Positions 14,290 to 28,418 of a stretch of DNA of 64,000 nucleotides are shown one piece after another (position 1 is the stretch's first letter; each line of letters begins with the position of its first letter). The stretch lies in NCBI RefSeq assembly GCF_055900595.2, contig NZ_CM148325.1. One strand, written 5' to 3'. Made by a program: the position numbers and the translations under genes. Under the pieces are notes generated by a model. The model made no database searches, was not told where the DNA came from, and worked only from the letters and a program-made list of their open reading frames with translations.

Positions 14290-15039
14290 TCAGTCAATTG
14301 TTTTGTTTATTCCATCTGTGACGCCGATTATTTTCTCAAAATAATGAGATGGCGTGACACCATAATAATCTTTAAATGCACATATGAAATATGAAGTACT
14401 GTTATAGCCACATTTCTGGGCTACGACATTGATAGAATAAGAGTTTGAAGTTATGAGTTTTTTTGCATACCTCATCCTAGTATCTCTCAATATTTCAGTA
14501 AATGACGTTCCTTCATCCCTTAATCTTTTTTTTATTAAACTTTCACTCGTATAAATCAATTCCGCAATATCTTTTAAATGCCATTGCCGCTCAATATTAA
14601 AACTGATTATTCCAGTAATTTTACATGTAAATGTATTTATATTTGTTAGTATAAATGAATTTACACTTTCGCGTTTTTTGAACATGGCAAGTAAGGATAT
14701 ACATAGTCTTTCTTTTAACCAAAGGGAGTGTGAGTCTGCTATTTTAATCCCTTCAAACAGAGAAAAAACAAGCGATAATGGAGGTTCCTCTTCAGCAATA
14801 TAGCCATTCTTATCAAGAGTAAATTTGCCAGGCAACTCATTATTCACGTCGATAAAAAAGGATAAACATGTTTTCTTATCTATATCAACAATTCTTAGTT
14901 TAGAGGGGCATACTGGTAACTCTCTTCTAATTTTGTCGCTTACAATAAACAATGAATTTTTTTTGAACGAGATAACTCTCCTGTTTATAATTAAATCAAA
15001 TGATTGACAGATGAAAACTACGGAGCAAACATAATCCAT
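14290..15039 (-). CDS. appY: AppY AraC-family transcriptional activator
   Basis: 249-aa AT-rich ORF with C-terminal AraC HTH ([26 protein letters not shown]). Confidence 0.85.
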
Positions 15040-15714
15040 CTTGCACCTATCATAAAATTAAAACAAGTTGATAGTAGTCAAATAACAGCCAATTAAATAC
15101 ACAATCATAATCAGGATGATGTGCATTTATATTTTTATACACAAAATTATAGTTTGCAAATTTTAATAAGTTTCATTTAAGATTAAATTATTATATGTAT
15201 ATTGTTTTTTATTCTAACGTATTTCAAAGTTACATTTTTCAACGCTTACTATGCTTTTTATTAACATAAACTCACTACAACGCACCTGAAACCTCTTGCT
15301 ATATATATGTCAACCGTTTGAATTTAAAATAAAAAGAGTATCATTTTTACTTGCATTTCTTATCAAGTCACATTCAACAACAGTAAAAAAACATTATTAG
15401 AACCATTCAATTAACAAAAAACCAACATCCAGCTTGCTTAATTTTTCTTTATTAAACGATATTGAAAATCAATTGATAAAATACATCTAAACAACCTTTT
15501 GGGGCGCAAAAGCATAACATCAAACAAACAAATAACACACCGAAAAAACTCACAATTAATAACCTATGATATACATACTGTTTATTATGGTTGAATAAGC
15601 CACTCGATATCTGGTGCTACGGAAGTGTCCACACGGTTTAGCAGCACCCGATACTTTTTCCAGGCTTCCAGCAACGAGTTTTCTTCCTCCGTTGCATATA
15701 CAGCTCACCTTTTT

Positions 15715-16008
15715 TCACCCACGATTAACCAACAGCCAGACCAGCAGACACGCCACCACCGGCACAGCAAAATCCATCAGGCTTGCCACATCCCATGCAC
15801 GTGTATCAAAACCGCCCCACCACGGCATATTCATTCGCTTGCCATGCCCGAACATTTCGATCCAGCGATATTCTGCCTGGGTGTGTTCACGCGCAATGAA
15901 GAACGTACAACCGGCTATCGCCCCGTAAGCCCAGTTTCCGGTAAAAAGACCAACCAGTACCTGCGCAGCCACAGCACAAAGTGCATGAAGGAAAGGTGTT
16001 ATATCCAT
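15715..16008 (-). CDS. Small hydrophobic membrane protein, function unknown, at the end of the tail-fibre remnant
   Basis: 97-aa ORF with two predicted transmembrane stretches; chosen over the overlapping plus-strand ORF 15625-16170 because of coherent hydrophobic segments and co-orientation with neighbouring phage genes. Confidence 0.4.
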   Translation of the reverse strand: MDITPFLHALCAVAAQVLVGLFTGNWAYGAIAGCTFFIAREHTQAEYRWIEMFGHGKRMNMPWWGGFDTRAWDVASLMDFAVPVVACLLVWLLVNRG

Positions 16009-16018
16009 TATTCCTCCT

Positions 16019-16723
16019 TTATCCGATATCGCTTCGGGAAGTTAATAACAACTTTAATTCTGACTCAAGTTCATCAACTCTTTCAGTCAGCTTCTGGATA
16101 TGGTGAATCAGTGGAACAACCAGACGTTCGTACATTACACCTTCGGCAACAAGGCCATTGCTGGAAATAGCTTCAGGAGCATCATCTTCGTTAGCTGGTC
16201 GCCAGTGTACAAACTGAGGGGCAATTTCTCCTACTTCCTCGGCAATCAATCCGTAGAACCCCCAGTCACGCCTGTCATTTTCGCATTGCGACCTGTACCA
16301 CACAGGGCGCATCCTGAAAATGACATCGGCGTGCTCTGAATCTATCGTCTCTACTGAATGTTTATAGCGGATAGACGATGTGGACCGCAGTACAGACGAA
16401 ATTGCAGGGTCAGGATTAAGATAAAGGTTTGCCGCCGCAGTAGTCGTGCCCAACCCCCATAAATAAAACGCTTCGCGGCCAGTCAGCGGGTAAAAATCAC
16501 CGCCATAACGACCGCTTTCCAGATCGTTCGCTTCCACTTTGTTTTTCAGCTTATTATCAACTTCAGTTTTTGTGTATCTGGTGCTGATATCCTGCTTTGC
16601 ACTGGTCATATCAATCTGAAGCGTTGATACTTTTCCGTTAATTGAGGAAATATCTTCCTTAGTTTTACTGACATCTCCCTTTAGCGTGGTGATATCTCCA
16701 GGAATTACTGTCGATGTAGCCAT
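16019..16723 (-). CDS. Phage tail-fibre C-terminal domain protein (coiled-coil plus putative chaperone-like C-terminus)
   Basis: 234-aa ORF; heptad-rich N-terminal half (TTLKGDVSKTKEDISSINGKVSTLQIDMTSAKQDIS) and C-terminal coiled coil typical of tail-fibre/spike tips. Confidence 0.5.
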   Translation of the reverse strand: MATSTVIPGDITTLKGDVSKTKEDISSINGKVSTLQIDMTSAKQDISTRYTKTEVDNKLKNKVEANDLESGRYGGDFYPLTGREAFYLWGLGTTTAAANLYLNPDPAISSVLRSTSSIRYKHSVETIDSEHADVIFRMRPVWYRSQCENDRRDWGFYGLIAEEVGEIAPQFVHWRPANEDDAPEAISSNGLVAEGVMYERLVVPLIHHIQKLTERVDELESELKLLLTSRSDIG

Positions 16724-16732
16724 TTGTCTCCC

Positions 16733-17014
16733 TCACATCCAGCCACGAAGTTGATGCTCAACAACAACCGCGTATTCATCGAATATTGACGGTGTTTTCA
16801 CATCATTAATGATGCGCACGTTTACAAAATATCCGTCTTCCTTAACACATACCGGCTCGCCATCTTCAGTAATTTCCCCGGTTTCTTTGTACACGTTACC
16901 TATCACATCAATGAGAACATTGTTCTGCATCACCTCGTCATCGTCATAACCAATGCTATCCATAAAGGCCGAAAAGTCGGCCTTGTCTGTGAATTTGATA
17001 ATTAAGTCTCGCAT
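16733..17014 (-). CDS. Hypothetical phage protein
   Basis: 93-aa acidic ORF, start overlaps the upstream tail-fibre-like gene stop (operon-like). Confidence 0.4.
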   Translation of the reverse strand: MRDLIIKFTDKADFSAFMDSIGYDDDEVMQNNVLIDVIGNVYKETGEITEDGEPVCVKEDGYFVNVRIINDVKTPSIFDEYAVVVEHQLRGWM

Positions 17015-18024
17015 TATATTACCTCTCCCATTTGTGCATCGGTTAATTCTTTATGCCATATACGAAAATTACGAATGTGACCGAAAAGATGACGTAGACC
17101 GCTATTAGTCTGTCCCCCAATCCTGAAGAAATAACCAGATTTAACACCGACATGATCCGTGGTTTTAGGAGTCCCATGCTGGGCATTGCTAACGAAATGC
17201 ACATTACCAGATTCATTTAAAACAAATCCAAGAACAGATTTTTGTTCAAATAATACTGGCGATACGGCGGCTACTGTACTACCGTTTTTATTGTGCATCG
17301 TAACACCAGGAAATAATGTTGAACTAATAGCAACACTTATATATTGACCCGGAGTTGTGCTCCCACCACTGGTATCAAAAATTCGTGGTGCTGCATTTGG
17401 CGTTTCGTTCCAGTTTGTATGAACTTCAGCTAGAAATGTTAAAGGTGGTGTACCGATATTGTTATTTGTTGGTATATTCACCATATCACTGGCTCTTGTG
17501 ACTGGCGTTGCCTCAGTAATAATAAACGAAGAAGCGCACGAACCGCCTTCGACCTGAGGAGTTGCAACATAAATATAATCATCTGCACCAGTGCTTCCCC
17601 CTTTTGGTGGTGCATATTGCACCATCGCACCGATCATATTTTCTGTATCAAGTGCCTTAATTGTTGCCTCAAAGAAAATCCATTTGCTTGCTTCATTTTT
17701 AACAGCCCTTGCAGTAATACGACTTGCAGCGCCGCCAGTTTTATCAATCGATAAATCTGTCATATTTAAGTAAGCATCACCCAGGAATTTGTAGGTAGAT
17801 CCATCATATTCTTCAAATCGTAATCGACATCTTAAATTTGGAGTCCCACTTTGTACCCTGCATGAGATAGTTACATACTTTTCATCGCCGGTAACATCAT
17901 ATCCTTTGCTTCCAGATACTGTGACAATAGAAATGGCTGAGGTTTGCCCCACCATTTCTGGTTTTAATGTGAATTTTGCGTACTGGAAACCAAAATCATC
18001 TACACCTGATGTATTTAAAATCAT
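17014..18024 (-). CDS. Phage tail fibre / receptor-binding-like protein, 5' end abutting IS1 (possibly truncated)
   Basis: ORF 17014-18048 begins with a non-ATG start inside IS1; first ATG (MILNTSG) at 18024; Gly/Thr/Ser-rich beta-type sequence with C-terminal motif NFRIWHKELTDAQMGEVI resembling lectin-like tail-fibre tips. Confidence 0.5.
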   Translation of the reverse strand: MILNTSGVDDFGFQYAKFTLKPEMVGQTSAISIVTVSGSKGYDVTGDEKYVTISCRVQSGTPNLRCRLRFEEYDGSTYKFLGDAYLNMTDLSIDKTGGAASRITARAVKNEASKWIFFEATIKALDTENMIGAMVQYAPPKGGSTGADDYIYVATPQVEGGSCASSFIITEATPVTRASDMVNIPTNNNIGTPPLTFLAEVHTNWNETPNAAPRIFDTSGGSTTPGQYISVAISSTLFPGVTMHNKNGSTVAAVSPVLFEQKSVLGFVLNESGNVHFVSNAQHGTPKTTDHVGVKSGYFFRIGGQTNSGLRHLFGHIRNFRIWHKELTDAQMGEVI

Positions 18025-18049
18025 ATTTGATGACGGTAATGACTCCAAC

Positions 18050-18553
18050 TTATTGATAGTGTTTTATGTTCAGATAATGCCCGATGACTTTGTCATGCAG
18101 CTCCACCGATTTTGAGAACGACAGCGACTTCCGTCCCAGCCGTGCCAGGTGCTGCCTCAGATTCAGGTTATGCCGCTCAATTCGCTGCGTATATCGCTTG
18201 CTGATTACGTGCAGCTTTCCCTTCAGGCGGGATTCATACAGCGGCCAGCCATCCGTCATCCATATCACCACGTCAAAGGGTGACAGCAGGCTCATAAGAC
18301 GCCCCAGCGTCGCCATAGTGCGTTCACCGAATACGTGCGCAACAACCGTCTTCCGGAGCCTGTCATACGCGTAAAACAGCCAGCGCTGGCGCGATTTAGC
18401 CCCGACATAGCCCCACTGTTCGTCCATTTCCGCACAGACGATGACGTCACTGCCCGGCTGTATGCGCGAGGTTACCGACTGCGGCCTGAGTTTTTTAAGT
18501 GACGTAAAATCGTGTTGAGGCCAACGCCCATAATGCGGGCAGTTGCCCGGCAT
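18050..18553 (-). CDS. insB: IS1 transposase InsB
   Basis: 167-aa ORF identical in character to IS1 InsB ([25 protein letters not shown]...). Confidence 0.95.
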
Positions 18554-18747
18554 CCAACGCCATTCATGGCCATATCAATGATTTTCTGGTGCGTACCGGG
18601 TTGAGAAGCGGTGTAAGTGAACTGCAGTTGCCATGTTTTACGGCAGTGAGAGCAGAGATAGCGCTGATGTCCGGCGGTGCTTTTGCCGTTACGCACCACC
18701 CCGTCAGTAGCTGAACAGGAGGGACAGCTGATAGAAACAGAAGCCAC
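18472..18747 (-). CDS. insA: IS1 protein InsA
   Basis: 91-aa [43 protein letters not shown]..., classic InsA with zinc finger. Confidence 0.95.
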
Positions 18748-18797
18748 TGGAGCACCTCAAAAACACCATCATACACTAAATCAGTAAGTTGGCAGCA

Positions 18798-19430
18798 TCA
18801 CCCATTACCGCCCATAATGATGATATTAGTGACGCCCTCACTAAATTCTGCGTAGCTCTCAATATCATCATTTGGATCAAAAGTTTCTTTATCCTTACCT
18901 GACCACTCAGCACCGCCAGACTGAGTGATGATATTTTGTGGTTTAATATTCCAGTCCAGCTCATAACGTTCAATACCATCGCCCTCAATGATATTTTTCC
19001 CCGTTGTGATTGCCTGAACGGCAAGCCATTCAATACGTGCACGAATAGCTTTAGCCTGATTTACAATCGCCTGTTTAACTTTAATATTACGCGCTCCAAA
19101 AGCATTGTATTGCTCAGGTGATACACCAGCAGGGCGCACAGCTAACTTATTTGGATCAATGCTGCTTTTCGGCTTCATATAGCCTGGACGAATTGTTTTT
19201 GATTCGAACCCTTCGTCACGTGAAACTTTACTACCCACCATAGGAGAACAAAACGCTGCAATTGGGATATTTGGATCGTCGATTGTATCAAGAATAATAT
19301 CGCGCGATTCAAACATTACCGAGCGAGTAAAAAACAAACTGGTAAACAACGCATTTAGTTGTTTTTGTACATCTACAGCATTAACCACCTGTACAAGCTG
19401 AGTAGGCGAATATAAATCAACCATACGCAT
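18798..19430 (-). pseudogene. Divergent lambda-E-family major capsid protein gene, 3' end truncated by IS1
   Basis: From Met at about 19430 the translation aligns with lambda gpE (FFTRSVMFESRD..., PGYMKPK, NIITQSGGAEWSGKDKETFDPNDDIESYA) and terminates at the IS1 junction after NIII, roughly half the length of gpE. Confidence 0.65.
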
Positions 19431-19640
19431 CCTCTTTGCATTCATTAAAAATAATTGTGGATATATGCTATCACCGATATTTGTCATGCGAACACATGCA
19501 ACCGAGTGCAATGTTGTATAAAGTTTTGGGGTGACAACTTCAGTGCGGACAATTAGTGTTAATATCTTCACTCCCTTTGGTCGGGATTTATGTAGCATGC
19601 CGGAAAATTTATTTTTTCTGGCTTTTTTTATTGGCAATAT

Positions 19641-20090
19641 TTAAAACGGGATATCATCTCCCCATTGCTCATTATCTCCCACTGGTGGCTGGCTTCCTTG
19701 CTGATCTGCCTGTTGTTTTGCTCTGTTCAGTGCGTCAGTAGCCTGCCCCTGTTGGCCTTTATTGCCGCCCGGTCGCACCGATCGCGCACTGATTACGCTG
19801 TCTGCGATAACCTGCCAGCCCTGCCGCGTTTCGCCGTTCTGTCCAGTCCACTGGCTCATCTGCATGTTACCCGCCACGCTCAGGAGTTCGCCTTTGTGAT
19901 GCTTTGCCAGCGCGTCGGCTTGTCTGCCAAACGCCAGGACAGATAACCACATCGTCGCCTGACCGTCATCCGACTGACTGCAGGGCAGTGATACCGCCAT
20001 ACGCGCCAGCGTCATGGGGGTGCCCTTGCTGGTCTGTTTTGTCTGCGGGTCGTCCACCAACCGCCCGTAAACTGATATTTGCGCCGTCAT
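19641..20090 (-). CDS. ssb: Single-stranded DNA-binding protein (SSB), phage/plasmid type
   Basis: 149-aa ORF with OB-fold-like N-terminus, Gly/Gln-rich linker and acidic C-terminal tail ending DDIPF. Confidence 0.8.
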   Translation of the reverse strand: MTAQISVYGRLVDDPQTKQTSKGTPMTLARMAVSLPCSQSDDGQATMWLSVLAFGRQADALAKHHKGELLSVAGNMQMSQWTGQNGETRQGWQVIADSVISARSVRPGGNKGQQGQATDALNRAKQQADQQGSQPPVGDNEQWGDDIPF

Positions 20091-20332
20091 GCTGCCTGCT
20101 CTCCGGACTTAATATTGATTGTTGTCACTTCCTCCGCTTCAGCAATCTCCCGTTCGGTCAGAGTGGCAAAGTTTGCAGCCGCCGTTGTCATGAATGCGCT
20201 AATCAGTTCGGGATGTGCTTTCGCGTATCCTTCCCCGGCGTTGCGGTCGATGATTTTTATCGACACCCTTAACCAGTGTTCCGTCAAATCAAGGGCGTGC
20301 GATTGTGATTTTTTTGTGTGCTTCGCTGTCAT
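20087..20332 (-). CDS. Hypothetical protein upstream of ssb
   Basis: 81-aa ORF overlapping the ssb start by 4 nt. Confidence 0.4.
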   Translation of the reverse strand: MTAKHTKKSQSHALDLTEHWLRVSIKIIDRNAGEGYAKAHPELISAFMTTAAANFATLTEREIAEAEEVTTINIKSGEQAA

Positions 20333-20384
20333 AGGCTTTATCTCACAGCAGTAAATTAAAATTTTTGCGTTTTAACCCTTCACC

Positions 20385-20605
20385 TGTTCACCTTTTGATA
20401 TTTTCTCTTTTAATTCATAATGTTAATGGGTGAACAGTTTCACAAAAACTATTCACCAACTGTTCACCACTGTTCACCCTTGAAGCTCAATAAACAATCA
20501 AAAAGGTGAACAGTGAATAGTTTGGTGAACAGTTCATAAATAACTGTTCACCCTATAATATACTGATATAAAAGATATTTATGACAGGGTGAACAGTGGT
20601 GAACA
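20385..20605. repeat. P4-type replication origin/crr-like iteron cluster (TGTTCACC octamers)
   Basis: Nine copies of TGTTCACC / GGTGAACA in both orientations (20385, 20429, 20461, 20471, 20505, 20524, 20545, 20588, 20598) with an AT-rich stretch, immediately 3' of the primase gene. Confidence 0.75.
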
Positions 20606-20619
20606 GTTATTCCATAAGT

Positions 20620-22440
20620 TTAATTTTTGCTATCGTCATTAGTGACCGATACACATGATGGCATCCAGTCTTCTGATTCCTCCGTCAGTGTCACGTTTGA
20701 ACGCAAACCGTGCTTCGTTTTCCGTTTCATATACTCCCTGCCATATTCCGCCATTGCCCCCGGCATATCTTTACCGAAGCGCGTCAGTGTTACAGGTTTA
20801 CCAAACCCATGTGCCCTCATATAAGCCAGATAGGCATGATAGAGATACCTGCGTGGGCTAAATGGCACAATTTCAGCATTACCCACTAACAGGCCATCAC
20901 ACATTACCGATGCCATGAGATAGCCGCAGAAGTCCACCAGCGAATCCCCCTCTCGCTTTATCGCCAGTGCTTCTTCAGATTTCTGCTGCTCATATAACAG
21001 GCGTCTGGCTTCGTCCTGATCATCAAACCGTGTAAGCAGATGACGAATCACTACCGCCAGCTCACCTTCTATTTTTTCCGCCAGCATCGAATCGCGTTCG
21101 TTCTCCGGTACAACTTCCGAAAAATTGAATATCACCCGACGACGTGAGATCCCCCCGCTGCGGTCACTGAATGACATGGCGTTATTGTTAACCGCCAGCA
21201 CTACTGCCGGAATACGCGTTGAATAGGGGGCTTTGTGTTTCGGGTCAATTGCCACCTTGTCACCGCCTGTAATGGCCTTAATCCCTGCCCCATCACCAGC
21301 GTAGCGGGTCATATCCGGCATGATAATCAGCGAAAAGCCAACCACTAACGCACGTTCCCTTGCATCTTCCAGCGCCTTCATGCTTGCTGATACTGTATTA
21401 GCCTTACCCGCCAGCATGGTGCAAATCTCCGCCATCACACTTTTACCACTTCCCCCCGGCCCTGTTACCTCAATGAATAACTGCCAGTCGTACCGGTTCG
21501 CCAGCACCATGAATAATGCCGCCAGTACGCGATCTGCCTTGCGGTCATTCTCAGCCACCGAACGGCGCAACCACTTCCAGAAATTCGGCGCATGTGTTGC
21601 CAGCGTTTCCCCCTCTGCTGGTGGGCTGAAAGGTAATTCACTGGCAATTAACAACCAGTCGTTTTTGTTATGCTCCCGAAAATTACCTGTTCTGGTATCA
21701 AATACCCCGTTACTGAATCCAATCAGGTTACGGGCTGTATTCCCCATTACAGGCAAACTTAACTTCATGGTATCTACCGCCGATTTAATGGCGTTCTGCG
21801 AATAGCTGATCTCCACATCAATGAAAATCTGCGCCATAGCACGCTGTAACTCTTTATCCTGAACCGGCTCCCATACAACGCCGTTGTAATGATGAACGGT
21901 GTCAGAGTCGGCATTGATTGCCAGTTCGCCGCCGTAATGTGCCAGGAGAACTTCACCGCGCTGGCTGGCCCCCATCTGATTCAACGCCAAAGATGAAGCA
22001 CGCTCGTCATTTTTGCGCTCTGCCTTCTTCACTGGCAGTTCAATCACCAGACTTTCCCCATGCTCCGCTTCAGCTTTTAGGCCGACAAGGCGCGGAGTCC
22101 AGTCTTCAGGCTCTCGATCAACAAAGCTACGGTAACAACGTGCTTCCTTTACGCCTGCAATAGCAAGTAATGTCGCAACCTTCGTCAGATTTTTCTCTGC
22201 GATCTTTCCGGCACGATAAACACGCACATAATGACGGCCTTCATCGATAATTTGCATATCATCCAGGTTTTCCAGTTGTTCCGTACCCAGAATTACTGGT
22301 GGTGTATCATCTGCTGCAATATGCTTACCCGCCCATTCATTCCATTCTTTTGCATGGCTCCAGGCATCACTGCCAGCAAAAATGATGACTTCTGTCATTT
22401 TGTCGCGCGGTTGGTATTTTAAGTTCGGAGCACGTTTCAT
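20620..22440 (-). CDS. P4-alpha-family primase/helicase (phage/plasmid primase, P-loop NTPase)
   Basis: 606-aa ORF with Walker A GPGGSGKS and primase C-terminal-type sequence; adjacent to TGTTCACC iterons. Confidence 0.8.
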   Translation of the reverse strand: MKRAPNLKYQPRDKMTEVIIFAGSDAWSHAKEWNEWAGKHIAADDTPPVILGTEQLENLDDMQIIDEGRHYVRVYRAGKIAEKNLTKVATLLAIAGVKEARCYRSFVDREPEDWTPRLVGLKAEAEHGESLVIELPVKKAERKNDERASSLALNQMGASQRGEVLLAHYGGELAINADSDTVHHYNGVVWEPVQDKELQRAMAQIFIDVEISYSQNAIKSAVDTMKLSLPVMGNTARNLIGFSNGVFDTRTGNFREHNKNDWLLIASELPFSPPAEGETLATHAPNFWKWLRRSVAENDRKADRVLAALFMVLANRYDWQLFIEVTGPGGSGKSVMAEICTMLAGKANTVSASMKALEDARERALVVGFSLIIMPDMTRYAGDGAGIKAITGGDKVAIDPKHKAPYSTRIPAVVLAVNNNAMSFSDRSGGISRRRVIFNFSEVVPENERDSMLAEKIEGELAVVIRHLLTRFDDQDEARRLLYEQQKSEEALAIKREGDSLVDFCGYLMASVMCDGLLVGNAEIVPFSPRRYLYHAYLAYMRAHGFGKPVTLTRFGKDMPGAMAEYGREYMKRKTKHGLRSNVTLTEESEDWMPSCVSVTNDDSKN

Positions 22441-22724
22441 TTGTTACCTCCGGCAACTAACATTGCCCGAATTTTGCGGATATAGCCTGCGGCACGCCTC
22501 TGATTATCTGTCTTGCAATTTTTTACCAGAATGAAATCTCTTTCGAACTGCTGACGCGGCATAACACATTCAAAATCATAACCATCACGCAAATAAGAGA
22601 CACGACGATCATCAACCGAAATAATCTTTACCCGATAGCCATAGCTGTCTTTGAAAATATCCCCAAGGCTGATTTTTGAATGAGTTTGACCGCTGGCAAT
22701 AAAGCCAGAAAATTTATTTTTCAT
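22437..22724 (-). CDS. Hypothetical protein of the P4-like module
   Basis: 95-aa ORF overlapping the primase start (operon-like). Confidence 0.45.
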   Translation of the reverse strand: MKNKFSGFIASGQTHSKISLGDIFKDSYGYRVKIISVDDRRVSYLRDGYDFECVMPRQQFERDFILVKNCKTDNQRRAAGYIRKIRAMLVAGGNK

Positions 22725-22727
22725 TTT

Positions 22728-22952
22728 TTATTCTCCGGTATAGCTCTGGTCGTGTATTTTTATAGCTTCATCCAGCTCTTTGATGACAGGATCAAGTAAC
22801 GTAATTAACGCTCCAGCTAAATTAGCATCCCGTTCATCGTGTTCCGCATTTGTTGTCCCATCAAGCCAGGTTGATAAGATTTCTCGCATATTTTTGCCAC
22901 AAACGAGCGCGTTTTCAGCATGTGTCAGCACTTTAAAATAAAGATCATTCAT
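22728..22952 (-). CDS. Hypothetical protein of the P4-like module
   Basis: 74-aa acidic ORF in tandem with downstream genes. Confidence 0.4.
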   Translation of the reverse strand: MNDLYFKVLTHAENALVCGKNMREILSTWLDGTTNAEHDERDANLAGALITLLDPVIKELDEAIKIHDQSYTGE

Positions 22953-23259
22953 GGCACACCTCCTGACGAATACGGGCGGCGAATATCATCACGTAGCCAG
23001 TTGGGGATTGCAGCCGGGCTTCCTGTTCGCTGGCGGCCTCGATGGTAATCACGCGCGGTTGTGCCGTACTCAGGGCGATAAAACGCCAGATGTATTTATT
23101 CAGGTTGTGCGGGTCCCGCCCTTGCGGGTGTGTGGTATGATTTCTCATAGCTACCTCGATACTGTTGCTATCGTTGGTGGTTAGAAGCCCGTTGGTGTTC
23201 CTAGCACCTTCGGGCTTTGCTTTTTTAAGTGCCTCCGTGTTAAGGTGGTCACCTAACAA
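22945..23259 (-). CDS. Hypothetical protein of the P4-like module (true start probably the internal Met at 23148)
   Basis: 104-aa ORF; 5' part overlaps an opposite-strand ORF, so a shorter 67-aa product from 23148 is more plausible. Confidence 0.35.
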   Translation of the reverse strand: MLGDHLNTEALKKAKPEGARNTNGLLTTNDSNSIEVAMRNHTTHPQGRDPHNLNKYIWRFIALSTAQPRVITIEAASEQEARLQSPTGYVMIFAARIRQEVCHE

Positions 23260-23479
23260 TGAAAAGGCTAATTCAATAGGTGGTCACTTGTCAACGATCA
23301 AACGCGATAAAAGTCCTAAGGGTGATGGGCAATCTCCACAATTCAGAATGCGAATTTCTCCAGAGCTAAAAGAGCAATTCGACAAAGAAGCGCAGAGCGA
23401 CGGCATAAGCCTAGCCAACTGGCTTAAAGAATTAGGGCGCAAAGAGCTGCTACGGCGCGGTATTGAACCAAAAGGATAA
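23165..23479 (+). CDS. Putative ribbon-helix-helix DNA-binding protein (true start probably internal)
   Basis: C-terminal 45 residues (QFRMRISPELKEQFDKEAQSDGISLANWLKELGRKELL) fit an Arc/CopG-type RHH pattern; two GGTGGTCAC direct repeats lie just upstream of the likely start. Confidence 0.45.
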   Translation: MLSLVVRSPLVFLAPSGFAFLSASVLRWSPNNEKANSIGGHLSTIKRDKSPKGDGQSPQFRMRISPELKEQFDKEAQSDGISLANWLKELGRKELLRRGIEPKG

Positions 23480-23506
23480 GAATAATTGAAGTCAAGGAGC
23501 TAACAC

Positions 23507-23863
23507 ATGAAATACGAATTCTTCGCAACAAGTAGCAGTAGTTTGGATGTATACATAGTCACTGTATCAAACGATTCTGGCTCTCTAATCATGACTTGTA
23601 ATTGTCCAGCAGGAAGTAAAGGTATTCTATGTAGACACCGTAAAGCTTTAATTACCGGAAAAATCCGCGGTATATTCACTCCCCCAAGAAGGAATAATCC
23701 CGAAAAATTACAAGAAGCTATAAATTTAATAGCCACATATGGCATAGATAAAACATTAAAGTTGTACACTGATGAGTTAGAACGAGCAGAACAGACTTGG
23801 ATAAGTGTTCGCGATAATTTGAGAGCAATGATAAACGCTCTTGTTGAACCACCTAAATATTGA
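23507..23863 (+). CDS. Small SWIM-zinc-finger-like protein (cargo gene)
   Basis: 118-aa AT-rich ORF with CxC-x8-CxH motif (CNCPAGSKGILCRH); followed by a hairpin terminator. Confidence 0.55.
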   Translation: MKYEFFATSSSSLDVYIVTVSNDSGSLIMTCNCPAGSKGILCRHRKALITGKIRGIFTPPRRNNPEKLQEAINLIATYGIDKTLKLYTDELERAEQTWISVRDNLRAMINALVEPPKY

Positions 23864-23929
23864 ACTGTTCACATTGCCTATCAGGCGATAACCTCGTATT
23901 CTGATTAAGGCTAACTATATACTCACATT

Positions 23930-23955
23930 GGCGACCAATTCTGGTCGCCTTTATC
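23930..23955. terminator. Hairpin between two convergent cargo genes (likely bidirectional intrinsic terminator)
   Basis: GGCGACC-aattct-GGTCGCC stem-loop followed by TTTATC; sits between the convergent 118-aa and 284-aa genes. Confidence 0.55.
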
Positions 23956-23994
23956 TACCATTTTTATAATATCATAGATTAAGAGTGTTAATCC

Positions 23995-24849
23995 TTACCC
24001 CCTGAATGGAATTGATGAGGATTTAATTTCCACAGAACCAAATCCTCTTGAATCCAAAAACATTTTTATACCAGCCTCAATAAAATCATAATCGCTTGTC
24101 GGGCCAATTGTAATGCTTTTAATTGGTAACTTTCTATTATCTTTATTATTAATAATGATATAAGGGATGATACCATTATTATTTATTCTAAATTTCACAT
24201 CTGGCATTTGTATCCACGGAGTAAACACCAGTCTAAATTCATTTTCTTCGATAAAACTAGGATGTTTAAAAAATGGGATATATTTAGATATAAATTGATA
24301 CGTAGAGACCATTGTTACAAAATGATCATTCATTTCTTTAATGTTAATACCATTACAAGAAAAAAACTCATCCAACTCCTTACTCATCTTTGTAATATCG
24401 TCATTATTTGAATATATAACATCATGTGCAACACAATTTAAATAAATATTTTGACAAAAACTCACAAGTTCATCCGCATCAAATTCAATGCAAACGCCCT
24501 GTTTATTTCCGTAACCTCTCCACTGACTTAACTTATCGTTTTCTTTACAAAAAGATATGCTATAAACATGTTTATCAATCCCTTTTTCTTTTTGTAACTT
24601 CCCTTTCTCATACATGTCAAGAGACTTGAGCAAAATAGTTTTCTTATCTTTTGGGATGATATTATCATCAACTATTTTAATTGTATTTCGAAAACATTCA
24701 CATCCATGGTTAGACTCCTCTTTATCATTTAAGAAATATATATTTGTAGCCCATAAAGAATTAGAGTCTAATATACCTTTCAAACCAAAAAGATCTGTAT
24801 AATGAAATATAGCCACAATGCCCCACCTAATAGTTAAGTCGTTTCCCAC
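23995..24849 (-). CDS. DUF2971-like protein (candidate anti-phage cargo gene)
   Basis: 284-aa very AT-rich ORF; motifs FHYTDLFGLKGIL, YFLNDKEE, SISFC...LSQWRGYGN..GVCIEFD resemble my recollection of DUF2971; overlaps the alpA stop (co-transcribed). Confidence 0.5.
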   Translation of the reverse strand: MGNDLTIRWGIVAIFHYTDLFGLKGILDSNSLWATNIYFLNDKEESNHGCECFRNTIKIVDDNIIPKDKKTILLKSLDMYEKGKLQKEKGIDKHVYSISFCKENDKLSQWRGYGNKQGVCIEFDADELVSFCQNIYLNCVAHDVIYSNNDDITKMSKELDEFFSCNGINIKEMNDHFVTMVSTYQFISKYIPFFKHPSFIEENEFRLVFTPWIQMPDVKFRINNNGIIPYIIINNKDNRKLPIKSITIGPTSDYDFIEAGIKMFLDSRGFGSVEIKSSSIPFRG

Positions 24850-25064
24850 TCACCTCGAATCCATGCCTGCACTTCTGAAAGACGATATGCAACAGCAGTG
24901 GAACCAATCTTGATCCGCTTAGGAAATTTTCCTTCCTTCTCCAGCTTCCAGCGTGTGCTGTTCGCAAGAGTGGTTAGCTCCCGACATTCTTTCTCACGGA
25001 TCATACGATCGATGTTAGGAATGTACTCCAGACCCTTTTTATCAACAATTGCCATTTTTTTCAT
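24834..25064 (-). CDS. alpA: AlpA-family phage transcriptional regulator/excisionase-like HTH protein
   Basis: 76-aa ORF directly downstream of the integrase, sequence pattern (ELTTLANSTRWKLEKEGKFPKRIKIGSTAVAYRLSEVQAWI) typical of AlpA. Confidence 0.8.
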   Translation of the reverse strand: MKKMAIVDKKGLEYIPNIDRMIREKECRELTTLANSTRWKLEKEGKFPKRIKIGSTAVAYRLSEVQAWIRGEWETT

Positions 25065-25065
25065 G

Positions 25066-26352
25066 TTAACCAGCCTTTTGTTTGAGGATTGTCACTTTTG
25101 AATCAGCACCTGCGATGCTATTGAGATATGTAGTCCAGAGTTCCAGAGCATCCAGTTTTTTAGCCATAAACTTACTCCGGTTGTAAACACCCGCCACGCC
25201 AGGTAGCGCATGGCCTAACAGTTGTTCTACTACATAAAATTCAACACCGAGATCACTTAGATGAGTAGATAGCGTTCTTCTAAGGTCGTGTAGTGACCAT
25301 TGTTTTTCATGGCCCAAACGTTTACCGATTTTCCCCCCAATCTTGCTTACGCTTTCTCTAATTCGCAGACTTCCCAGCACATAACCAGTATGTTTTGTCT
25401 CTTCGTGAACATCCGTTACCCACTGTCGTAGAATTTCAGGTACTGGTCTGACGATTTCAACACCAGTTTTTGAGTGATCTTTTGGTACCGTCCAAACCCA
25501 ACTTTCGAGATCCCATTCGCTCCATTCAGATAATCGGGCTTCACTCATTCGACATCCAAATACTGTACAAAGCACAAACATTTTTCGCGTGTATTCAGAC
25601 ATTAGTTTTAAATCAGGCTCGACAAAAATTGCCTTCCAGAGCTGGCCGAGTTCGGCTTCATCCAGAACCCGATCCCGCTTACCTGCAATCTGCCCCACAT
25701 CACTCATGCGCAAATCCTTTAAAGCATCACACGTCGCGTACTGGCGTACCCGACAAAAACGAAGAGCTAATTTAGTGTCAGAAAAAACATACGCCGCCAT
25801 AACTGGTGCATTACGTTTAATTCGGTCAAAACAGTCCAGCCATTCATATAGGTGAGTGTCATTTACGGGCAAATGACCGATATAGGGAAAGATATGCTTT
25901 CGAAATCTGCCAAGCGTTACAGCATGAGTTTTACGACGCACCTTACAGTAATTTTCATACCAGTAATTTAGTGCATCCTCCACTGTGACCGGCTTTAAGC
26001 GTTCTTCAGCCTGAATCTTAATCTGGATACGCGGATCACGTTTGTCAGCCAACCAACCACGGCACTCGTCGCGCTTTTCCCTTGCCTGTTTGAGTGACAT
26101 ATCAGGATATTTACCCAACGTTAGCCAGACCGGAGCAGCCCGGCCACCTGCTAACCTGTAGAAGAAAACAAAGCTCACAGCCCCTTTAGTACTCACACGA
26201 ATAGAAAGCCCCTTTCCATCAGCAATGGTGATCTGCTTTTCTCTGGGTTTCCCCAGATATCCTTTAAGCGCTTTGTCGCTCAGTTTGTTCTCGCCAGCCA
26301 TTTTTAGCCCCAAAAAGCAATACAAGCTGCAATACAGAGATGATTGCAACAC
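25066..26352 (-). CDS. Tyrosine recombinase/integrase (P4-type)
   Basis: 428-aa ORF with C-terminal catalytic region containing HDLRRT and LLGHA...Y motifs; int-alpA arrangement typical of P4-like islands. Confidence 0.85.
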   Translation of the reverse strand: MLQSSLYCSLYCFLGLKMAGENKLSDKALKGYLGKPREKQITIADGKGLSIRVSTKGAVSFVFFYRLAGGRAAPVWLTLGKYPDMSLKQAREKRDECRGWLADKRDPRIQIKIQAEERLKPVTVEDALNYWYENYCKVRRKTHAVTLGRFRKHIFPYIGHLPVNDTHLYEWLDCFDRIKRNAPVMAAYVFSDTKLALRFCRVRQYATCDALKDLRMSDVGQIAGKRDRVLDEAELGQLWKAIFVEPDLKLMSEYTRKMFVLCTVFGCRMSEARLSEWSEWDLESWVWTVPKDHSKTGVEIVRPVPEILRQWVTDVHEETKHTGYVLGSLRIRESVSKIGGKIGKRLGHEKQWSLHDLRRTLSTHLSDLGVEFYVVEQLLGHALPGVAGVYNRSKFMAKKLDALELWTTYLNSIAGADSKVTILKQKAG

Positions 26353-26433
26353 ACAGATAACGAGGAAAATTCAGTGAAAGCACCAGATAAACTTATTCTT
26401 TATTATCAAAAGATTAAGTGTAAAAACCAGCAA

Positions 26434-26709
26434 CTACACGAAAGCCTCAGAAAGCCATGCTAAGTGCTTGGGTTTGACATAACCCGGCGTAAATTCAGAG
26501 GTGGAGCCGCCACGGGATCGGATAACCTCACCGGAAACAATCGGCGAAACGTACAGCGCCATGTTTACCAGTCCCGGAATTTGTGAGAGATAGACTTTTT
26601 CCGTGGTGAAAGGATAGGTTTCACGGAAAAACAGGCGCAGAAACAGCGGATCGAACTTAAAGTGATGCTGGGTCGATGCCAGTAATTCTGCAGTTGTATA
26701 TACAGACAT
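26434..26709 (-). pseudogene. E: Lambda major capsid protein E, N-terminal ~80 codons only (truncated)
   Basis: MSVYTTAELLASTQHHFKFDPLFLRLFFRETYPFTTEKVYLSQIPGLVNMALYVSPIVSGEVIRSRGGSTSEFTPGYVKPKH is near-identical to lambda gpE N-terminus, then diverges and stops. Confidence 0.85.
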
Positions 26710-26764
26710 AAATTATTTCCATAAAAAAAGCCGCACAGGCGGCCTTTGTTGATGAAGGGGAAGA

Positions 26765-27097
26765 TTAAACGATGCTGATTGCCGTTCCGGCAAACGCGGT
26801 CCGTTTTTTAGTCTCGTCGCTGGCAGCCTCCGGCCAGAGCACATCCTCATAACGGAACGAGCCGGACTTGTAGAACGTCAGTGTGGTGCTGGTCTGGTCA
26901 GCAGCAACCGCCAGAATGCCAACGGCTGCACCGTCGGTGGTGCCATCCCACACAACCAGCTTACGGGTAGTGCCATCCAGCATCAGCGGGGTCATTGCAG
27001 GCGTTTTCGCACTCAATCCGCCAGGCGCAATTGCTGTATGAGCCGGATCACTGTTACCCAGCGGCTGGTAATGGTTAAACTCTTCTTTTGTCGCCAT
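26765..27097 (-). CDS. D: Head decoration protein D
   Basis: 110-aa ORF closely matching lambda gpD ([14 protein letters not shown]...FAGTAISIV). Confidence 0.9.
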
Positions 27098-27106
27098 AAC
27101 TGCCTC

Positions 27107-28418
27107 TTATACCGGTAAAGCTTCAGGTGTATTAAGTAATTCTTTATTGGTATCAGATGCCAGGTTACCTGCAGCCAGCGGTGCCGGTGCACCCTGCATC
27201 AGACGATCCAGCGCAGTGTCACTGCGCGCCTGTGCACTCTGTGGTGCTGCAGCCAGAATGCGGCGGGCCGTTTCCACGGTCATTCCGGGGGTTTCGGCCA
27301 GAACGCGCGCCTGTTCTTCGCGTCCGTGAGCCTCCTCACAGTTGAGGATCCCCATAATGCGGCTGTTTTCTGCCGCAACCGCTGCGGTGATCTGCGCGTT
27401 CACGTCCGGCTGCGCCGCGCTGGCGTTTTCGCCCTCCGTCGCTGGCACCACGTCAGTAACGTCAGCCTGCGAAGCAGTGGCTGAAACAGTTGTTGATTGA
27501 GTCTCTTTGGTCATTCGCCCTCCTGAGAGACGGGATTTACGCGCATCCAGTGCATCACGCATGACGGTGATCGCATCGGTGCTGTTAACAAGTTCATCAG
27601 CCAGTCCGGCATCAATGGCCTCCTGACCGCTGTACACTGCAGCCTCGGTATCCAGCACAGCCTGCACAGACAGGCCGGTATATGCCGACACCTTCTGCGC
27701 AAACATCTGGCGGGTTGCGTCCATCCGGGACTGCAGTGTCTCCCGGACGTCATCCGGAAGATGGCTGTAGGGATTGCCATCCACCTTATGGCTGCCGCTG
27801 TAAATCAGCGTGATTTCCACACCCTGTTTCTCCAGGGCAGCACCGTAATTACTGTGAGCCATCATGACGCCGATGGAGCCTGTCCGGGCGGTCTGCGTGA
27901 CCAGACGCCGGGAGGCGGCACTGGCAAGCAGCTGACCTGCACTGCAGTTCATGTCGTTGGCCAGCGCCCATACCGGTTTTATGTCACGCACACGGGCGAT
28001 GATGTCAGCGCAGTCAAATGCCCCCGCCACCATTCCGCCTGGCGTGTCCATATCGAGCAGAATGCCGTCCACCATCGGGTCGCTGGCAGCCTGTTGCAGA
28101 CGGGCGATAATGCCGTTGTAACCGGTCATCCCCGAGTACGGCTGCAGCGCCCGCGTCCGGCTGACCAGCGTGCCGGACACCGGCAGCACGGCGATGCCGT
28201 TCATGACCTGATAACTGCGGGCCTGTCGTGGTCCGTCATCATCACCGGATAATGCCAGCGTCGCGAGTGCCTCCTGGGCAGTCAGGCTGTCGCCGGACAC
28301 CGCATCCGTCAGGCGGCTGATCCCAAGCTGGCCTGCAAGCGCACAAAAGAAAACCCGCGCATAGGCGGGTTCAAGCATCAGCGGCTCATTAAAGGCCATG
28401 CTGGCAATATGCGGGAGA

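What the first reader, a model, noticed from the sequence alone, without database searches (positions are those of the whole stretch)
23165..24849. Convergent cargo locus in the P4-like module: AlpA with a DUF2971-like protein facing an RHH gene with a SWIM-zinc-finger gene
Between the P4-type integrase/alpA and the primase, where P4-like satellites are known to carry variable anti-phage hotspots, lie two convergent units separated by a shared hairpin (23930-23955). (a) A 284-aa protein whose start overlaps the alpA stop, with motifs I recall as DUF2971-like. (b) On the other strand a small RHH-like gene followed by a 118-aa protein with a SWIM-type CxC-x8-CxH zinc finger. The locus is strongly AT-rich relative to neighbours. 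I cannot match this gene combination to a named defence system.
Basis: partly seen in the sequence, partly recalled or inferred. Interest (0 to 1): 0.85.

Follow-up and report, generated by a model that had tools for sequence, protein, structure and literature searches.

The report
Two cargo slots in a phage satellite
The four genes are real, but they are not one defence system: two are backbone regulators of a known phage satellite that sits inside its helper prophage, and each regulator carries a swappable passenger gene, one of them a DarT-like ADP-ribosyltransferase from a family with one tested anti-phage member.

Summary
There is a DUF2971 gene (Pfam E 1.1e-11), a SWIM gene (E 3.9e-5, with CxC-x8-CxH invariant), a small RHH gene, a hairpin at 23930-23949, and a GC content of 0.29 over the DUF2971 gene.

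The element is not a canonical P4-like satellite. It is a helper-embedded PICI of the published 11capE type, inserted in the major capsid gene of a lambdoid prophage. The locus lies in that family's "dynamic (Bro) zone".

alpA and RHH are backbone regulators. RHH homologues occur in 36 loci across Enterobacterales, none with SWIM or DUF2971. The two RHH operators change together with its DNA-reading beta-strand.

The swapped cassette is the DUF2971 ORF alone (about 23953-24845). Relatives carry a TIR protein, SIR2+HerA, a Bro-N protein, unknown proteins or nothing in the same slot.

SWIM is a separate passenger gene co-transcribed with the repressor. Its function is unknown.

Overall this is a new member of known kinds, of moderate interest.

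The parts
25066..26301 (-). Tyrosine integrase of the satellite (Integration zone).
   Evidence: RefSeq annotation of the 100%-identical locus L001. It is 98.7-98.8% identical at the DNA level to the L003 and L004 islands. The raw ORF extends to 26352.
24834..25064 (-). alpA, an AlpA-family regulator/excisionase. It is a backbone gene and heads cargo slot A.
   Evidence: phrog_2790 E 5.8e-18. It is conserved next to int in L003, L004, L007-L015 and L070.
23995..24816 (-). Slot A cargo: a 273-aa DUF2971 protein, predicted to be a DarT-like ADP-ribosyltransferase.
23953..24845 (.). The exchanged cassette: the stretch with no homology to otherwise 91-99% identical island backbones.
   Evidence: blastn against L003 and L004: homology ends at 23952 and resumes at 24846 or 24858.
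23930..23949 (+). Terminator hairpin of the RHH-SWIM operon. It is part of the conserved backbone side, not of the cassette.
   Evidence: 8-bp stem with a T-run on the + strand. dG -15.2 kcal/mol, z -5.8. It lies inside the region still homologous to L003 and L004.
23507..23863 (+). Slot B cargo: a 118-aa SWIM zinc-finger protein with a long C-terminal helix.
   Evidence: Pfam SWIM E 3.9e-5. phrog_13130 E 1e-82. The CxC-x8-CxH motif is invariant. AF2 pLDDT 89.1. It starts 27 nt after the RHH stop and has its own AAGGAG ribosome-binding site. pN 0.18 against pS 0.81.
23288..23479 (+). A 63-aa RHH DNA-binding protein, inferred to be the satellite's repressor/switch regulator. It is a backbone gene.
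   Evidence: phrog_228 Arc-like E 4.4e-6. Pfam HicB E 6.6e-4. Alignment A1. 36 loci in Enterobacterales. dN/dS 0.12.
23278..23289 (.). Operator O2 (AGGTGGTCACTT), overlapping the RHH start codon.
   Evidence: It co-varies with the RHH beta-strand across loci. AGGTGGTCAC occurs exactly twice in the 64-kb window.
23243..23254 (.). Operator O1 (the palindrome AGGTGGTCACCT), 35 bp upstream of O2.
23184..23227 (+). A conserved hairpin followed by a T-run, antisense to the icd leader. It is a candidate 3' end of a small cis-antisense RNA.
   Evidence: RNAalifold: 14 pairs, 5 of them with compensatory changes; the G-U pairs are valid only on the + strand. dG -23.2 kcal/mol, z -4.9.
22945..23148 (-). 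Icd-like gene, the first gene of the divergent replication operon (icd, orf74, DUF4222, primase).
   Evidence: NCBIfam NF033153 E 7.4e-19. RefSeq CDS in L001.

Best explanation
The locus is the dynamic ("Bro") zone of a helper-embedded, Gram-negative phage-inducible chromosomal island (HE-PICI) of the 11capE type. It is made of two convergent units. Each unit has a conserved backbone regulator followed by an exchangeable passenger gene.

Unit A is alpA followed by slot A. Here slot A holds a single-gene cassette that encodes a DUF2971 protein. I infer that this protein is an NAD+-dependent ADP-ribosyltransferase of the DarT/Tpt1-like branch, which targets nucleic acids. I also infer that it acts like the validated DUF2971 system Aristaios: a toxin that stays quiet until phage infection or island induction, and then modifies DNA, RNA or a key protein, so that the infection is aborted or a competing phage is blocked.

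Unit B is RHH followed by slot B. RHH is inferred to be the island's sequence-specific repressor. It would bind two palindromic operators, O1 and O2. O2 overlaps its own start codon, and both lie in the 140-bp region that separates RHH from the divergent icd-primase replication operon. RHH would therefore autoregulate and probably hold the replication operon off. The SWIM gene is a passenger transcribed together with this repressor, so it would be expressed in the quiescent state. It is either an exclusion/defence factor or a co-factor of the switch. The hairpin at 23930-23949 terminates unit B.

Shown here: the gene content, the domains and folds, the cassette boundaries, the independent assortment of the parts, the co-variation of operators with the RHH beta-strand, and purifying selection.

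Inferred: enzymatic activity and target, the anti-phage phenotype, repression by RHH, co-transcription of alpA with DUF2971, and any role for SWIM.
For: Element identity. The island (int, alpA..., icd, DUF4222, primase, SSB, its own major capsid and decoration genes) splits a lambdoid major capsid gene. This matches Eco567.11capE and the four-zone plan described in PMC10111431.

Cassette. Homology to the L003 and L004 backbones stops at 23952 and resumes at 24846-24858.

What fills slot A in relatives:
- a Bro-N protein (L002)
- unknown proteins of 273, 265 and 276 aa (L003, L004, L068)
- a TIR protein, PF10137 (L070)
- SIR2+HerA, E 3.5e-126 and 9.5e-248 (L047)
- nothing (L005, L006, L066)

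DUF2971 protein:
- It sits right after int-alpA in other islands at 43-60% identity.
- It is found on 621 plasmids, and on an IncI plasmid it lies next to Abi_C and DUF3800 genes.
- Pfam E 1.1e-11. The HYT and ExExR motifs are invariant.
- Literature: DUF2971 is described as a DarT/AbiGi-like ART family (PMC12522546), and Aristaios is a single-gene DUF2971 abortive-infection system (PMC11381338).

RHH:
- Homologues are found in 36 loci across Erwinia, Pectobacterium, Pantoea, Morganella and other genera. None of them has SWIM or DUF2971.
- The two operators change together with the beta-strand residues: QFRMRIS goes with AGGTGGTCACCT, PFHMRIV with AGGTGTACACCT, TFQIRIS with TACGTACGTA, AFQIRIN with GTGTGTACCTAT, and IFSVRLT with GTATGGACC.
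- The operator word occurs only at these two sites in the 64-kb window.

SWIM:
- In the satellite loci examined (L001-L005, L007, L066-L068, L070) it follows a small upstream gene on the same strand. In most loci this gene matches the RHH model; in L007 it is a DUF3950 gene that my RHH model did not detect.
- A homologue follows an S24 CI-like repressor in a phage immunity region (L072).
- Other genes replace SWIM after RHH in other genera.

All three genes are under purifying selection.
Against: - No experiment supports any activity.
- PADLOC gives only weak, partial hits: PDC-S31 at E 2.4e-4 and PDC-S62 at E 4.9e-5.
- A free-standing DarT-like toxin would be expected to need an antidote, and none was identified.
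- If DUF2971 is transcribed only from the helper-induced alpA promoter, it would not protect a quiescent cell against unrelated phages.
- No sigma-70 promoter was recognisable in the RHH-icd intergenic region (and manual inspection).
- In E. coli, DUF2971 is always found with SWIM (35 of 35 genomes), so a functional link cannot be excluded from those genomes alone.
Confidence: 0.6

Rival explanations
1. The two units form one system. DUF2971 would be the toxin or effector, and RHH-SWIM its antitoxin, regulator or sensor.
For: - All 35 E. coli genomes with DUF2971 also carry RHH-SWIM.
- In Buttiauxella (L007), a DUF2971 protein at 60% identity again faces a SWIM-like protein at 32% identity that follows a small DUF3950 gene.
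- PGAP names the RHH in L004 a "HicB family antitoxin", and Pfam HicB matches at E 6.6e-4.
- A DarT-like toxin would be expected to need a neutraliser.
Against: - RHH-SWIM occurs with Bro-N, TIR, three unrelated unknown proteins or no gene at all in the slot.
- DUF2971 occurs with RHH but no SWIM (L012-L015), with neither RHH nor SWIM detected by my models (L008/L009, L011; L010 gave a weak RHH-model match), and on plasmids.
- The cassette boundary separates DUF2971 from the SWIM terminator.
- Within E. coli the two units have different histories. In ET490-type genomes DUF2971 is 100% identical but RHH-SWIM only 92%. In the other genomes DUF2971 is 96.2% identical and RHH-SWIM 99.5%.
- IS1414 truncates SWIM in three isolates that keep an intact DUF2971 gene. 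Only about 12 codons are lost, so this is weak evidence.
- No HicA-type toxin lies next to RHH.
Confidence: 0.1
2. DUF2971 is not a defence gene. It would be a satellite life-cycle weapon, expressed together with AlpA when the helper is induced. It would ADP-ribosylate helper or host components to bias resources towards the satellite. Phage T4 Alt, ModA and ModB are a known example of phage ARTs that modify host proteins.
For: - The gene lies 17 nt downstream of alpA on the same strand, with no terminator predicted between them.
- The position corresponds to the Bro/eta position of P4, which holds regulatory and killing functions (PMC10111431).
- The T4 ART example comes from my own knowledge.
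Against: - The gene is absent from most islands with the same backbone, so it is not part of the core cycle.
- It is interchangeable with TIR and SIR2+HerA, which are defence-type cargo.
- Homologues are common on conjugative plasmids, next to Abi_C.
- The one tested family member is an anti-phage abortive-infection system (PMC11381338).
Confidence: 0.2
3. SWIM is not cargo. It would be a working partner of the repressor, for example a co-repressor, or the sensor or anti-repressor that couples helper induction to RHH release.
For: - In the satellite loci examined, SWIM follows the small regulator gene with a gap of about 27 nt.
- A homologue follows a CI-like S24 repressor in a phage.
- The model shows a zinc module plus a long helix, which would suit protein or DNA binding.
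Against: - RHH stands alone or is followed by unrelated genes in most genera.
- SWIM also occurs as a stand-alone gene away from any repressor, in Salmonella contigs that look like phage-plasmids.
- GC is 0.36 for SWIM against 0.46 for RHH, which suggests separate acquisition.
Confidence: 0.3
4. The RHH ORF is not a gene. The coding strand would be the minus strand, as in PGAP's pseudogene call and the 221-aa ORF annotated in L006.
For: RefSeq annotates a minus-strand pseudogene over this stretch in L001 and a 221-aa hypothetical protein in L006.
Against: - In the + frame, pS is 0.60 against pN 0.14 (dN/dS 0.12).
- The 63-aa protein is conserved at 58-97% identity from E. coli to Enterobacter, and in 36 further loci.
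- Profile hits to Arc-like and HicB RHH families.
- The minus frame carries internal stops in the window.
Confidence: 0.02

Closest known systems
[quoted passage not shown]
   Same: An island of about 11 kb integrated inside the major capsid gene of a lambdoid prophage and co-oriented with it. It carries its own capsid gene. The zones run in the same order: Integration (int, alpA), Bro/dynamic, Replication (primase, SSB), Late.
   Different: The paper describes the dynamic zone in terms of Bro-network proteins and C4/isrK-type immunity RNAs. It does not mention RHH, SWIM, DUF2971 or defence cargo. No C4 or isrK hit was found here. I did not compare this island directly with the 11capE sequence.
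Aristaios, a single-gene DUF2971 anti-phage system from a Lactococcus plasmid (PMC11381338)
   Same: It belongs to the same Pfam family, PF11185. It is a stand-alone gene on a mobile element. It has a predicted ADP-ribosyltransferase fold. The abortive-infection logic would fit here too.
   Different: Aristaios is 316 aa, from a Gram-positive plasmid, and was tested when overexpressed. The protein here is 273 aa and sits in a satellite slot behind alpA. I had no Aristaios sequence or model, so similarity beyond the shared Pfam family is untested. No phenotype is known for the protein here.
DarT of the DarTG toxin-antitoxin/defence system
   Different: There is no DarG macrodomain partner. The protein has large helical insertions at about residues 43-85 and 152-193. 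Sequence identity is 8-14%. Its substrate is unknown.
The psu-int defence hotspot of P4-like satellites (PMC9122126)
   Same: The concept is the same: a fixed position in a satellite where unrelated, AT-rich, often single-gene anti-phage cassettes are exchanged.
   Different: It belongs to a different element type and a different position. The P4 hotspot lies next to cos, between psu and int. This island has no annotated psu, delta or sid gene, and its slot lies between alpA and the repressor.
Repressor-operon passenger genes of temperate phages, such as lambda cI-rexAB (from my own knowledge)
   Same: SWIM is placed directly downstream of the element's repressor and on the same strand. A SWIM homologue follows an S24 CI-like repressor in L072.
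   Different: There is no sequence or fold relationship to RexA, RexB or SieB. No exclusion phenotype is known.

Membership tests
Helper-embedded PICI (HE-PICI, PMC10111431) | [quoted passage not shown] | tested here: met
   Split major capsid pseudogene halves flank the island in the 100%-identical record. All the genes lie on the same strand as the prophage head genes.
Helper-embedded PICI (HE-PICI, PMC10111431) | int followed by alpA, then a dynamic zone, then primase/SSB, then late genes. | tested here: met
   The gene order matches.
Helper-embedded PICI (HE-PICI, PMC10111431) | The integrase belongs to the single HE-PICI clade (cap_E subclade). | not tested
   No phylogeny was built. I only observed that near-identical integrases (98.7-100% DNA identity) sit at the same capsid-gene site in L003 and L004.
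P4-like satellite (psu, delta, sid, alpha, epsilon, int, alpA) | Presence of the capsid-size and polarity genes psu, delta and sid. | tested here: not met
   None is annotated in the island. The late zone instead carries a major capsid gene and a head decoration gene. This rests on annotation only; no dedicated HMM search was run.
P4-like satellite defence hotspot | The cassette lies between psu and int, next to cos. | tested here: not met
   The cassette lies between alpA and the RHH-SWIM operon. The hotspot definition comes from PMC9122126.
DUF2971 (PF11185) | A significant match to the Pfam profile. | tested here: met
   E 1.1e-11, covering the full model (positions 1-89). Homologues carry a precomputed PF11185 hit.
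ADP-ribosyltransferase superfamily, H-Y-E type, DarT-like | Conserved motif I (H), motif II (Y/S) and motif III (ExE). | tested here: met
   H16 Y17 T18, S99 F100 and E202 E204 R206 are invariant or nearly so in 42 sequences. The motif scheme follows PMC12522546.
ADP-ribosyltransferase superfamily, H-Y-E type, DarT-like | An ART fold. | tested here: inconclusive
ADP-ribosyltransferase superfamily, H-Y-E type, DarT-like | NAD+-dependent transfer of ADP-ribose to a substrate. | not testable with these tools
   This needs biochemistry.
DarTG | An adjacent DarG macrodomain antitoxin. | tested here: not met
   The neighbours are alpA, SWIM and RHH. None of them matches a macrodomain in Pfam, NCBIfam or PHROGs.
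Aristaios | A single DUF2971 gene is sufficient (stand-alone cassette). | tested here: met
   The cassette boundaries enclose only this ORF. The gene occurs with varied neighbours.
Aristaios | A match to the Aristaios protein or model, and an anti-phage phenotype. | not tested
PADLOC v2 has no Aristaios model. A phenotype would need experiments.
SWIM zinc finger (PF04434) | The CxCxnCxH signature and a profile match. | tested here: met
   E 3.9e-5. C31, C33, C42 and H44 are invariant.
RHH (Arc / CopG / HicB-C) DNA-binding proteins | A profile match to an RHH family. | tested here: met
   phrog_228 E 4.4e-6. Pfam HicB E 6.6e-4, with 4 of 7 members at E <= 1e-3. The match is weak but consistent.
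RHH (Arc / CopG / HicB-C) DNA-binding proteins | Cognate palindromic operators near its own promoter. | tested here: met
   Two palindromes co-vary with the beta-strand residues across five specificity classes. They are the only two exact copies in the window. Binding itself was not tested.
HicAB toxin-antitoxin | An adjacent HicA toxin. | tested here: not met
   No HicA-like gene was found. The downstream gene is SWIM, and the upstream gene is the divergent icd.
PADLOC candidate systems PDC-S31 and PDC-S62 | A full-length, significant match to the candidate model. | tested here: inconclusive
   PDC-S31: E 2.4e-4 over residues 77-154 only. PDC-S62: E 4.9e-5, matching positions 54-138 of a 566-position model.

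The most novel reading that the evidence does not exclude
Gram-negative PICIs of this lineage would have an undescribed regulatory layer and a two-state cargo architecture.

- An RHH master repressor, with specificity classes defined by co-varying operator pairs, would keep the replication operon off. A roughly 80-nt cis-antisense RNA over the icd start may add to this.
- The zone between alpA and the repressor would consist of two convergent cargo slots: one read from the helper-induced alpA promoter, and one read together with the repressor in the quiescent state.
- The island could then deploy different passenger genes in each state: NAD+-using effectors such as the DUF2971 ART, TIR or SIR2-HerA in one slot, and small factors such as the SWIM protein in the other.
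- The small SWIM family, with 516 representative clusters, would be a new class of repressor-linked exclusion or sensing factor in mobile elements.
Probability: 0.3. Interest if true: 0.65.

Novelty: new member of a known kind. Interest (0 to 1): 0.42.

Why it matters
If the DUF2971 protein is an active DarT-like ADP-ribosyltransferase that blocks phages, three things follow.

- It would extend the only validated DUF2971 defence (Aristaios, from Lactococcus) to Enterobacteriaceae, where homologues sit on hundreds of plasmids and in satellites.
- It would add the slot after alpA in helper-embedded PICIs to the list of places to look for new defence genes. TIR and SIR2-HerA already occupy this slot in relatives, and several fillings are complete unknowns.
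- The RHH/operator pairs offer a directly testable candidate for a repressor in Gram-negative PICIs. Their control has so far been described mainly through the activator AlpA.

None of this is a categorical surprise. It refines the map of a known satellite family.

Tried and rejected
- Rfam search of 18000-27500 at E <= 1, looking for C4/isrK-type immunity RNAs expected near icd-like genes: no hit, only chance matches.
- NCBIfam: nothing for DUF2971 or SWIM.
- PADLOC: only weak partial hits for the window proteins, and none for the alternative cargo proteins.
- Pfam on the 273-aa and 265-aa alternative cargo proteins: nothing.
- Profile of DUF2971 homologues against PDB sequences: only spurious GABA-receptor matches.
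- Consensus promoter scan of 22800-25200: no more sites than in shuffles, and none in the RHH-icd intergenic region.
- Search for att core repeats at the island ends: only one 10-mer (TTCTTTATTA, at 15445 and 26396). I could not validate it.
- tblastn against phage records: only 6 distant DUF2971 hits.
- Considered and rejected: that the RHH ORF is the antisense of a real minus-strand gene (see rivals), and that the hairpin belongs to the cassette. It lies in the conserved flank.
Full report
**What is there.** The ORFs exist as described.
- The 284-aa minus-strand ORF (23995-24849) matches Pfam DUF2971 at E 1.1e-11 and phrog_1762 at E 2e-25.
- The 118-aa plus-strand ORF (23507-23863) matches Pfam SWIM at E 3.9e-5. 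Its C31-x-C33-x8-C42-x-H44 signature is invariant in homologues.
- The small upstream ORF matches Arc-like RHH phrog_228 at E 4.4e-6 and Pfam HicB at E 6.6e-4.
- The hairpin at 23930-23949 has an 8-bp stem, dG -15.2 kcal/mol and z -5.8, with a T-run only on the + strand.
- GC is 0.29 over DUF2971, 0.36 over SWIM and 0.46 over RHH, against 0.44-0.50 for int, alpA and primase.

**Two corrections to coordinates.**
- All DUF2971 homologues are about 273 aa and start at residue 12 of the ORF. A GTG at 24816 follows a well-spaced AGGTGG. The gene therefore most likely starts 17 nt after the alpA stop and does not overlap it.
- The RHH gene starts at TTG 23288 (ATG in relatives) and encodes 63 aa. 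The stretch 23165-23287 is regulatory DNA, not coding sequence.

**What the element is.** A 100%-identical E. coli chromosome (NZ_CP141767) shows the context. The gene order is: int, alpA, DUF2971, then SWIM and RHH on the other strand, then Icd-like, orf74, DUF4222, primase, orf81, SSB, a major capsid gene, a head-decoration gene, an HTH gene, and finally a restriction endonuclease. The whole island is inserted inside the major capsid gene of a lambdoid prophage, and the two pseudogene halves of that gene flank it.
- This is the published helper-embedded PICI type (Eco567.11capE, PMC10111431). That family has four zones: Integration, Bro/dynamic, Replication and Late. The finding lies in the dynamic zone.
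- No psu, delta or sid gene is annotated, so the element is not a canonical P4-like satellite.
- The published P4 defence hotspot lies between psu and int, next to cos (PMC9122126).

**The four genes do not form one system.**
- Counts in 5,426 complete E. coli genomes: the DUF2971 gene occurs in 35; the RHH+SWIM unit occurs nearly full-length in 45, with more at 70% identity; the RHH stretch alone accounts for most of the remaining 206 matching genomes.
- Islands with the same backbone carry other things in the slot behind alpA (int-alpA is 98.7-98.8% identical in L003 and L004):
  - a Bro-N anti-repressor-like protein (L002)
  - a 273-aa phrog_16034 protein (L003)
  - a 265-aa unknown protein (L004)
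  - nothing (L005, L006)
- More distant SWIM-bearing islands carry a 276-aa unknown protein (L068), a TIR-domain protein PF10137 (L070), or nothing (L066).
- DUF2971 homologues at 43-60% identity sit immediately after int-alpA in related satellites embedded in other prophage head genes. In most of these SWIM is absent (L008-L015). Only L007 has a weak SWIM-like neighbour, at 32% identity.
- blastn places the cassette boundaries at 23952 and at 24846 or 24858. The exchanged unit is therefore the DUF2971 ORF alone, and the hairpin belongs to the conserved RHH-SWIM side.
- Within E. coli the two units have different histories. In ET490-type genomes DUF2971 is 100% identical but RHH-SWIM only 92%. 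In the other genomes DUF2971 is 96.2% identical and RHH-SWIM 99.5%.
- The 35-of-35 co-occurrence in E. coli is therefore best explained as linkage within one island lineage.

**RHH is a backbone regulator.**
- A scan of one genome per species found 36 loci with RHH homologues, in Erwinia, Pectobacterium, Brenneria, Pantoea, Morganella, Xenorhabdus, Buttiauxella and other genera. None has SWIM or DUF2971 by HMM.
- RHH is always divergent from the Icd-like/primase operon where that operon is recognisable.
- Upstream of RHH lie two palindromic sites 35 bp apart: O1 at 23243-23254 and O2 at 23278-23289. O2 overlaps the start codon.
- Both sites change together with the residues of the RHH beta-strand across five classes:
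  - QFRMRIS with AGGTGGTCACCT
  - PFHMRIV with AGGTGTACACCT
  - TFQIRIS with TACGTACGTA
  - AFQIRIN with GTGTGTACCTAT
  - IFSVRLT with GTATGGACC
- AGGTGGTCAC occurs exactly twice in the 64-kb window, at these two sites.
- The RHH frame has dN/dS 0.12. This rules out PGAP's minus-strand pseudogene reading.
- I infer that RHH is an autoregulated repressor of the island's switch region. Binding and repression were not tested.

**SWIM is a second, separate passenger gene.**
- In the satellite loci examined it follows a small upstream gene on the same strand, at a gap of about 27 nt. In most loci this gene matches the RHH model; in L007 it is a DUF3950 gene that the model did not detect.
- RHH often stands alone. 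In other genera it is followed by unrelated genes: a 128-aa hydrophobic protein in Pectobacterium and Brenneria, and proteins of 220-467 aa elsewhere.
- The small SWIM family is large, with 516 representative clusters at E <= 1e-3.
- One member directly follows an S24 CI-like repressor in a phage immunity region (L072). Another stands alone, convergent with a Bro-N gene, in Salmonella contigs that look like phage-plasmids.
- The AF2 model is confident (pLDDT 89). It shows a zinc module plus a long helix, but has no informative structural neighbour.
- The position suggests expression together with the repressor in the quiescent state, either as an exclusion or defence passenger gene or as a switch co-factor. 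I cannot decide between these.

**DUF2971.**
- In 42 homologues the following residues are invariant or nearly so: H16 Y17 T18, N41 D42 E45, S99 F100, W110 Y113, K195, and E202 E204 R206. This matches the modified H-Y-E ART motifs described for this family in PMC12522546.
- A sequence profile against the PDB finds nothing.
- dN/dS is 0.12.
- Homologues at 39-48% identity occur on 621 plasmids. On an IncI plasmid one lies next to an Abi_C "abortive infection" gene and a DUF3800 gene.
- One DUF2971 protein, Aristaios from a Lactococcus plasmid, is an experimentally validated single-gene abortive-infection system (PMC11381338).
- In Buttiauxella brennerae, SIR2+HerA lies convergent with RHH at the equivalent position. 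A TIR protein fills the slot in L070.
- Together these results make an anti-phage NAD+-dependent effector the most likely role.
- The main rival is a satellite weapon fired together with AlpA during helper induction. The gene is probably co-transcribed with alpA, and alpA is helper-induced in Gram-negative PICIs (PMC11773190).

**Verdict.** The locus is the dynamic zone of a known satellite family. It holds one swap-in DUF2971 ART cassette, which is a new enterobacterial member of a family with one validated defence system, and one repressor-linked SWIM passenger gene of unknown function. The RHH/operator co-variation and the conserved plus-strand hairpin over the icd leader are, as far as the papers I read go, undescribed. 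They are the most interesting by-products of this analysis.

Noticed in passing
window about 15524-26463, flanked by 14735-15523 and 26464-26709: The whole roughly 11-kb satellite is inserted inside the major capsid gene of a lambdoid prophage and carries its own capsid and decoration genes. This matches the published helper-embedded PICI 11capE type (PMC10111431). Relatives sit in other head genes: terL in L002, and the protease/capsid fusion gene in L007 and L010.
   Followed up: partly
window 23133-23228 (+): A conserved hairpin (23184-23218) followed by a T-run. 5 of its 14 pairs show compensatory changes, and its G-U pairs are valid only on the + strand. It is preceded by the sequence TGGTATGAT, which resembles an extended -10 element and is conserved among the closest islands. 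This could be a cis-antisense RNA of about 80 nt covering the icd start codon at 23148. No Rfam family matches it.
   Followed up: partly
window 15719-16591 (+): A gene annotated as "restriction endonuclease" (290 aa) lies at the far end of the island, with no methyltransferase annotated next to it. It may be further cargo at the 3' end of the satellite. NCBIfam gave no hit.
   Followed up: no
window 23212-23478 (-); L006 4910-5575 (-): RefSeq/PGAP annotates a minus-strand pseudogene, and in L006 a 221-aa hypothetical protein, directly antisense to the conserved RHH gene. In most of the records checked the RHH gene itself is left unannotated. Substitution patterns show that the + strand is the coding strand.
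   Followed up: yes
window 20432-20548: An AT-rich stretch dense in inverted repeats lies just downstream of the primase gene. It produced chance microRNA-family hits. It is probably the satellite's replication origin, which the literature places downstream of pri (PMC10111431).
   Followed up: no
L071 (NZ_OW968288) 3738-5299; E. coli ET670, Ec-U1 and PRO_A-2576: Natural insertion mutants exist. IS1414 removes the last roughly 12 codons of SWIM while DUF2971 stays intact. IS5 or IS3 elements interrupt DUF2971 in three other genomes that keep SWIM.
   Followed up: partly
L016-L051, downstream of RHH: The position after RHH on the same strand is itself variable across genera. It holds a 123-128-aa hydrophobic protein in Pectobacterium and Brenneria, and proteins of 220-467 aa elsewhere. 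One of these gives a weak LeoBC-like hit, and another looks like an ATPase.
   Followed up: partly
L003 5592-5801; L004 5715-5864: Short ORF fragments that match the SWIM profile lie just downstream of the intact SWIM gene in islands with other cargo. They may be scars of past cassette exchange.
   Followed up: no
L012-L014 10600-14700: In Enterobacter kobei, the int-alpA-255aa-DUF2971-RHH fragment lies next to an Abi_C gene, RadC, and a pyocin-S/immunity pair rather than a replication module. This looks like a decayed island inside a defence or competition cluster.
   Followed up: no
window 17637-18020 (-): A second AlpA-like HTH gene (127 aa, 36% identical to alpA over 67 residues) sits at the late end of the island. 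This recalls the second alpA copy described for EcCIMP1.
   Followed up: no
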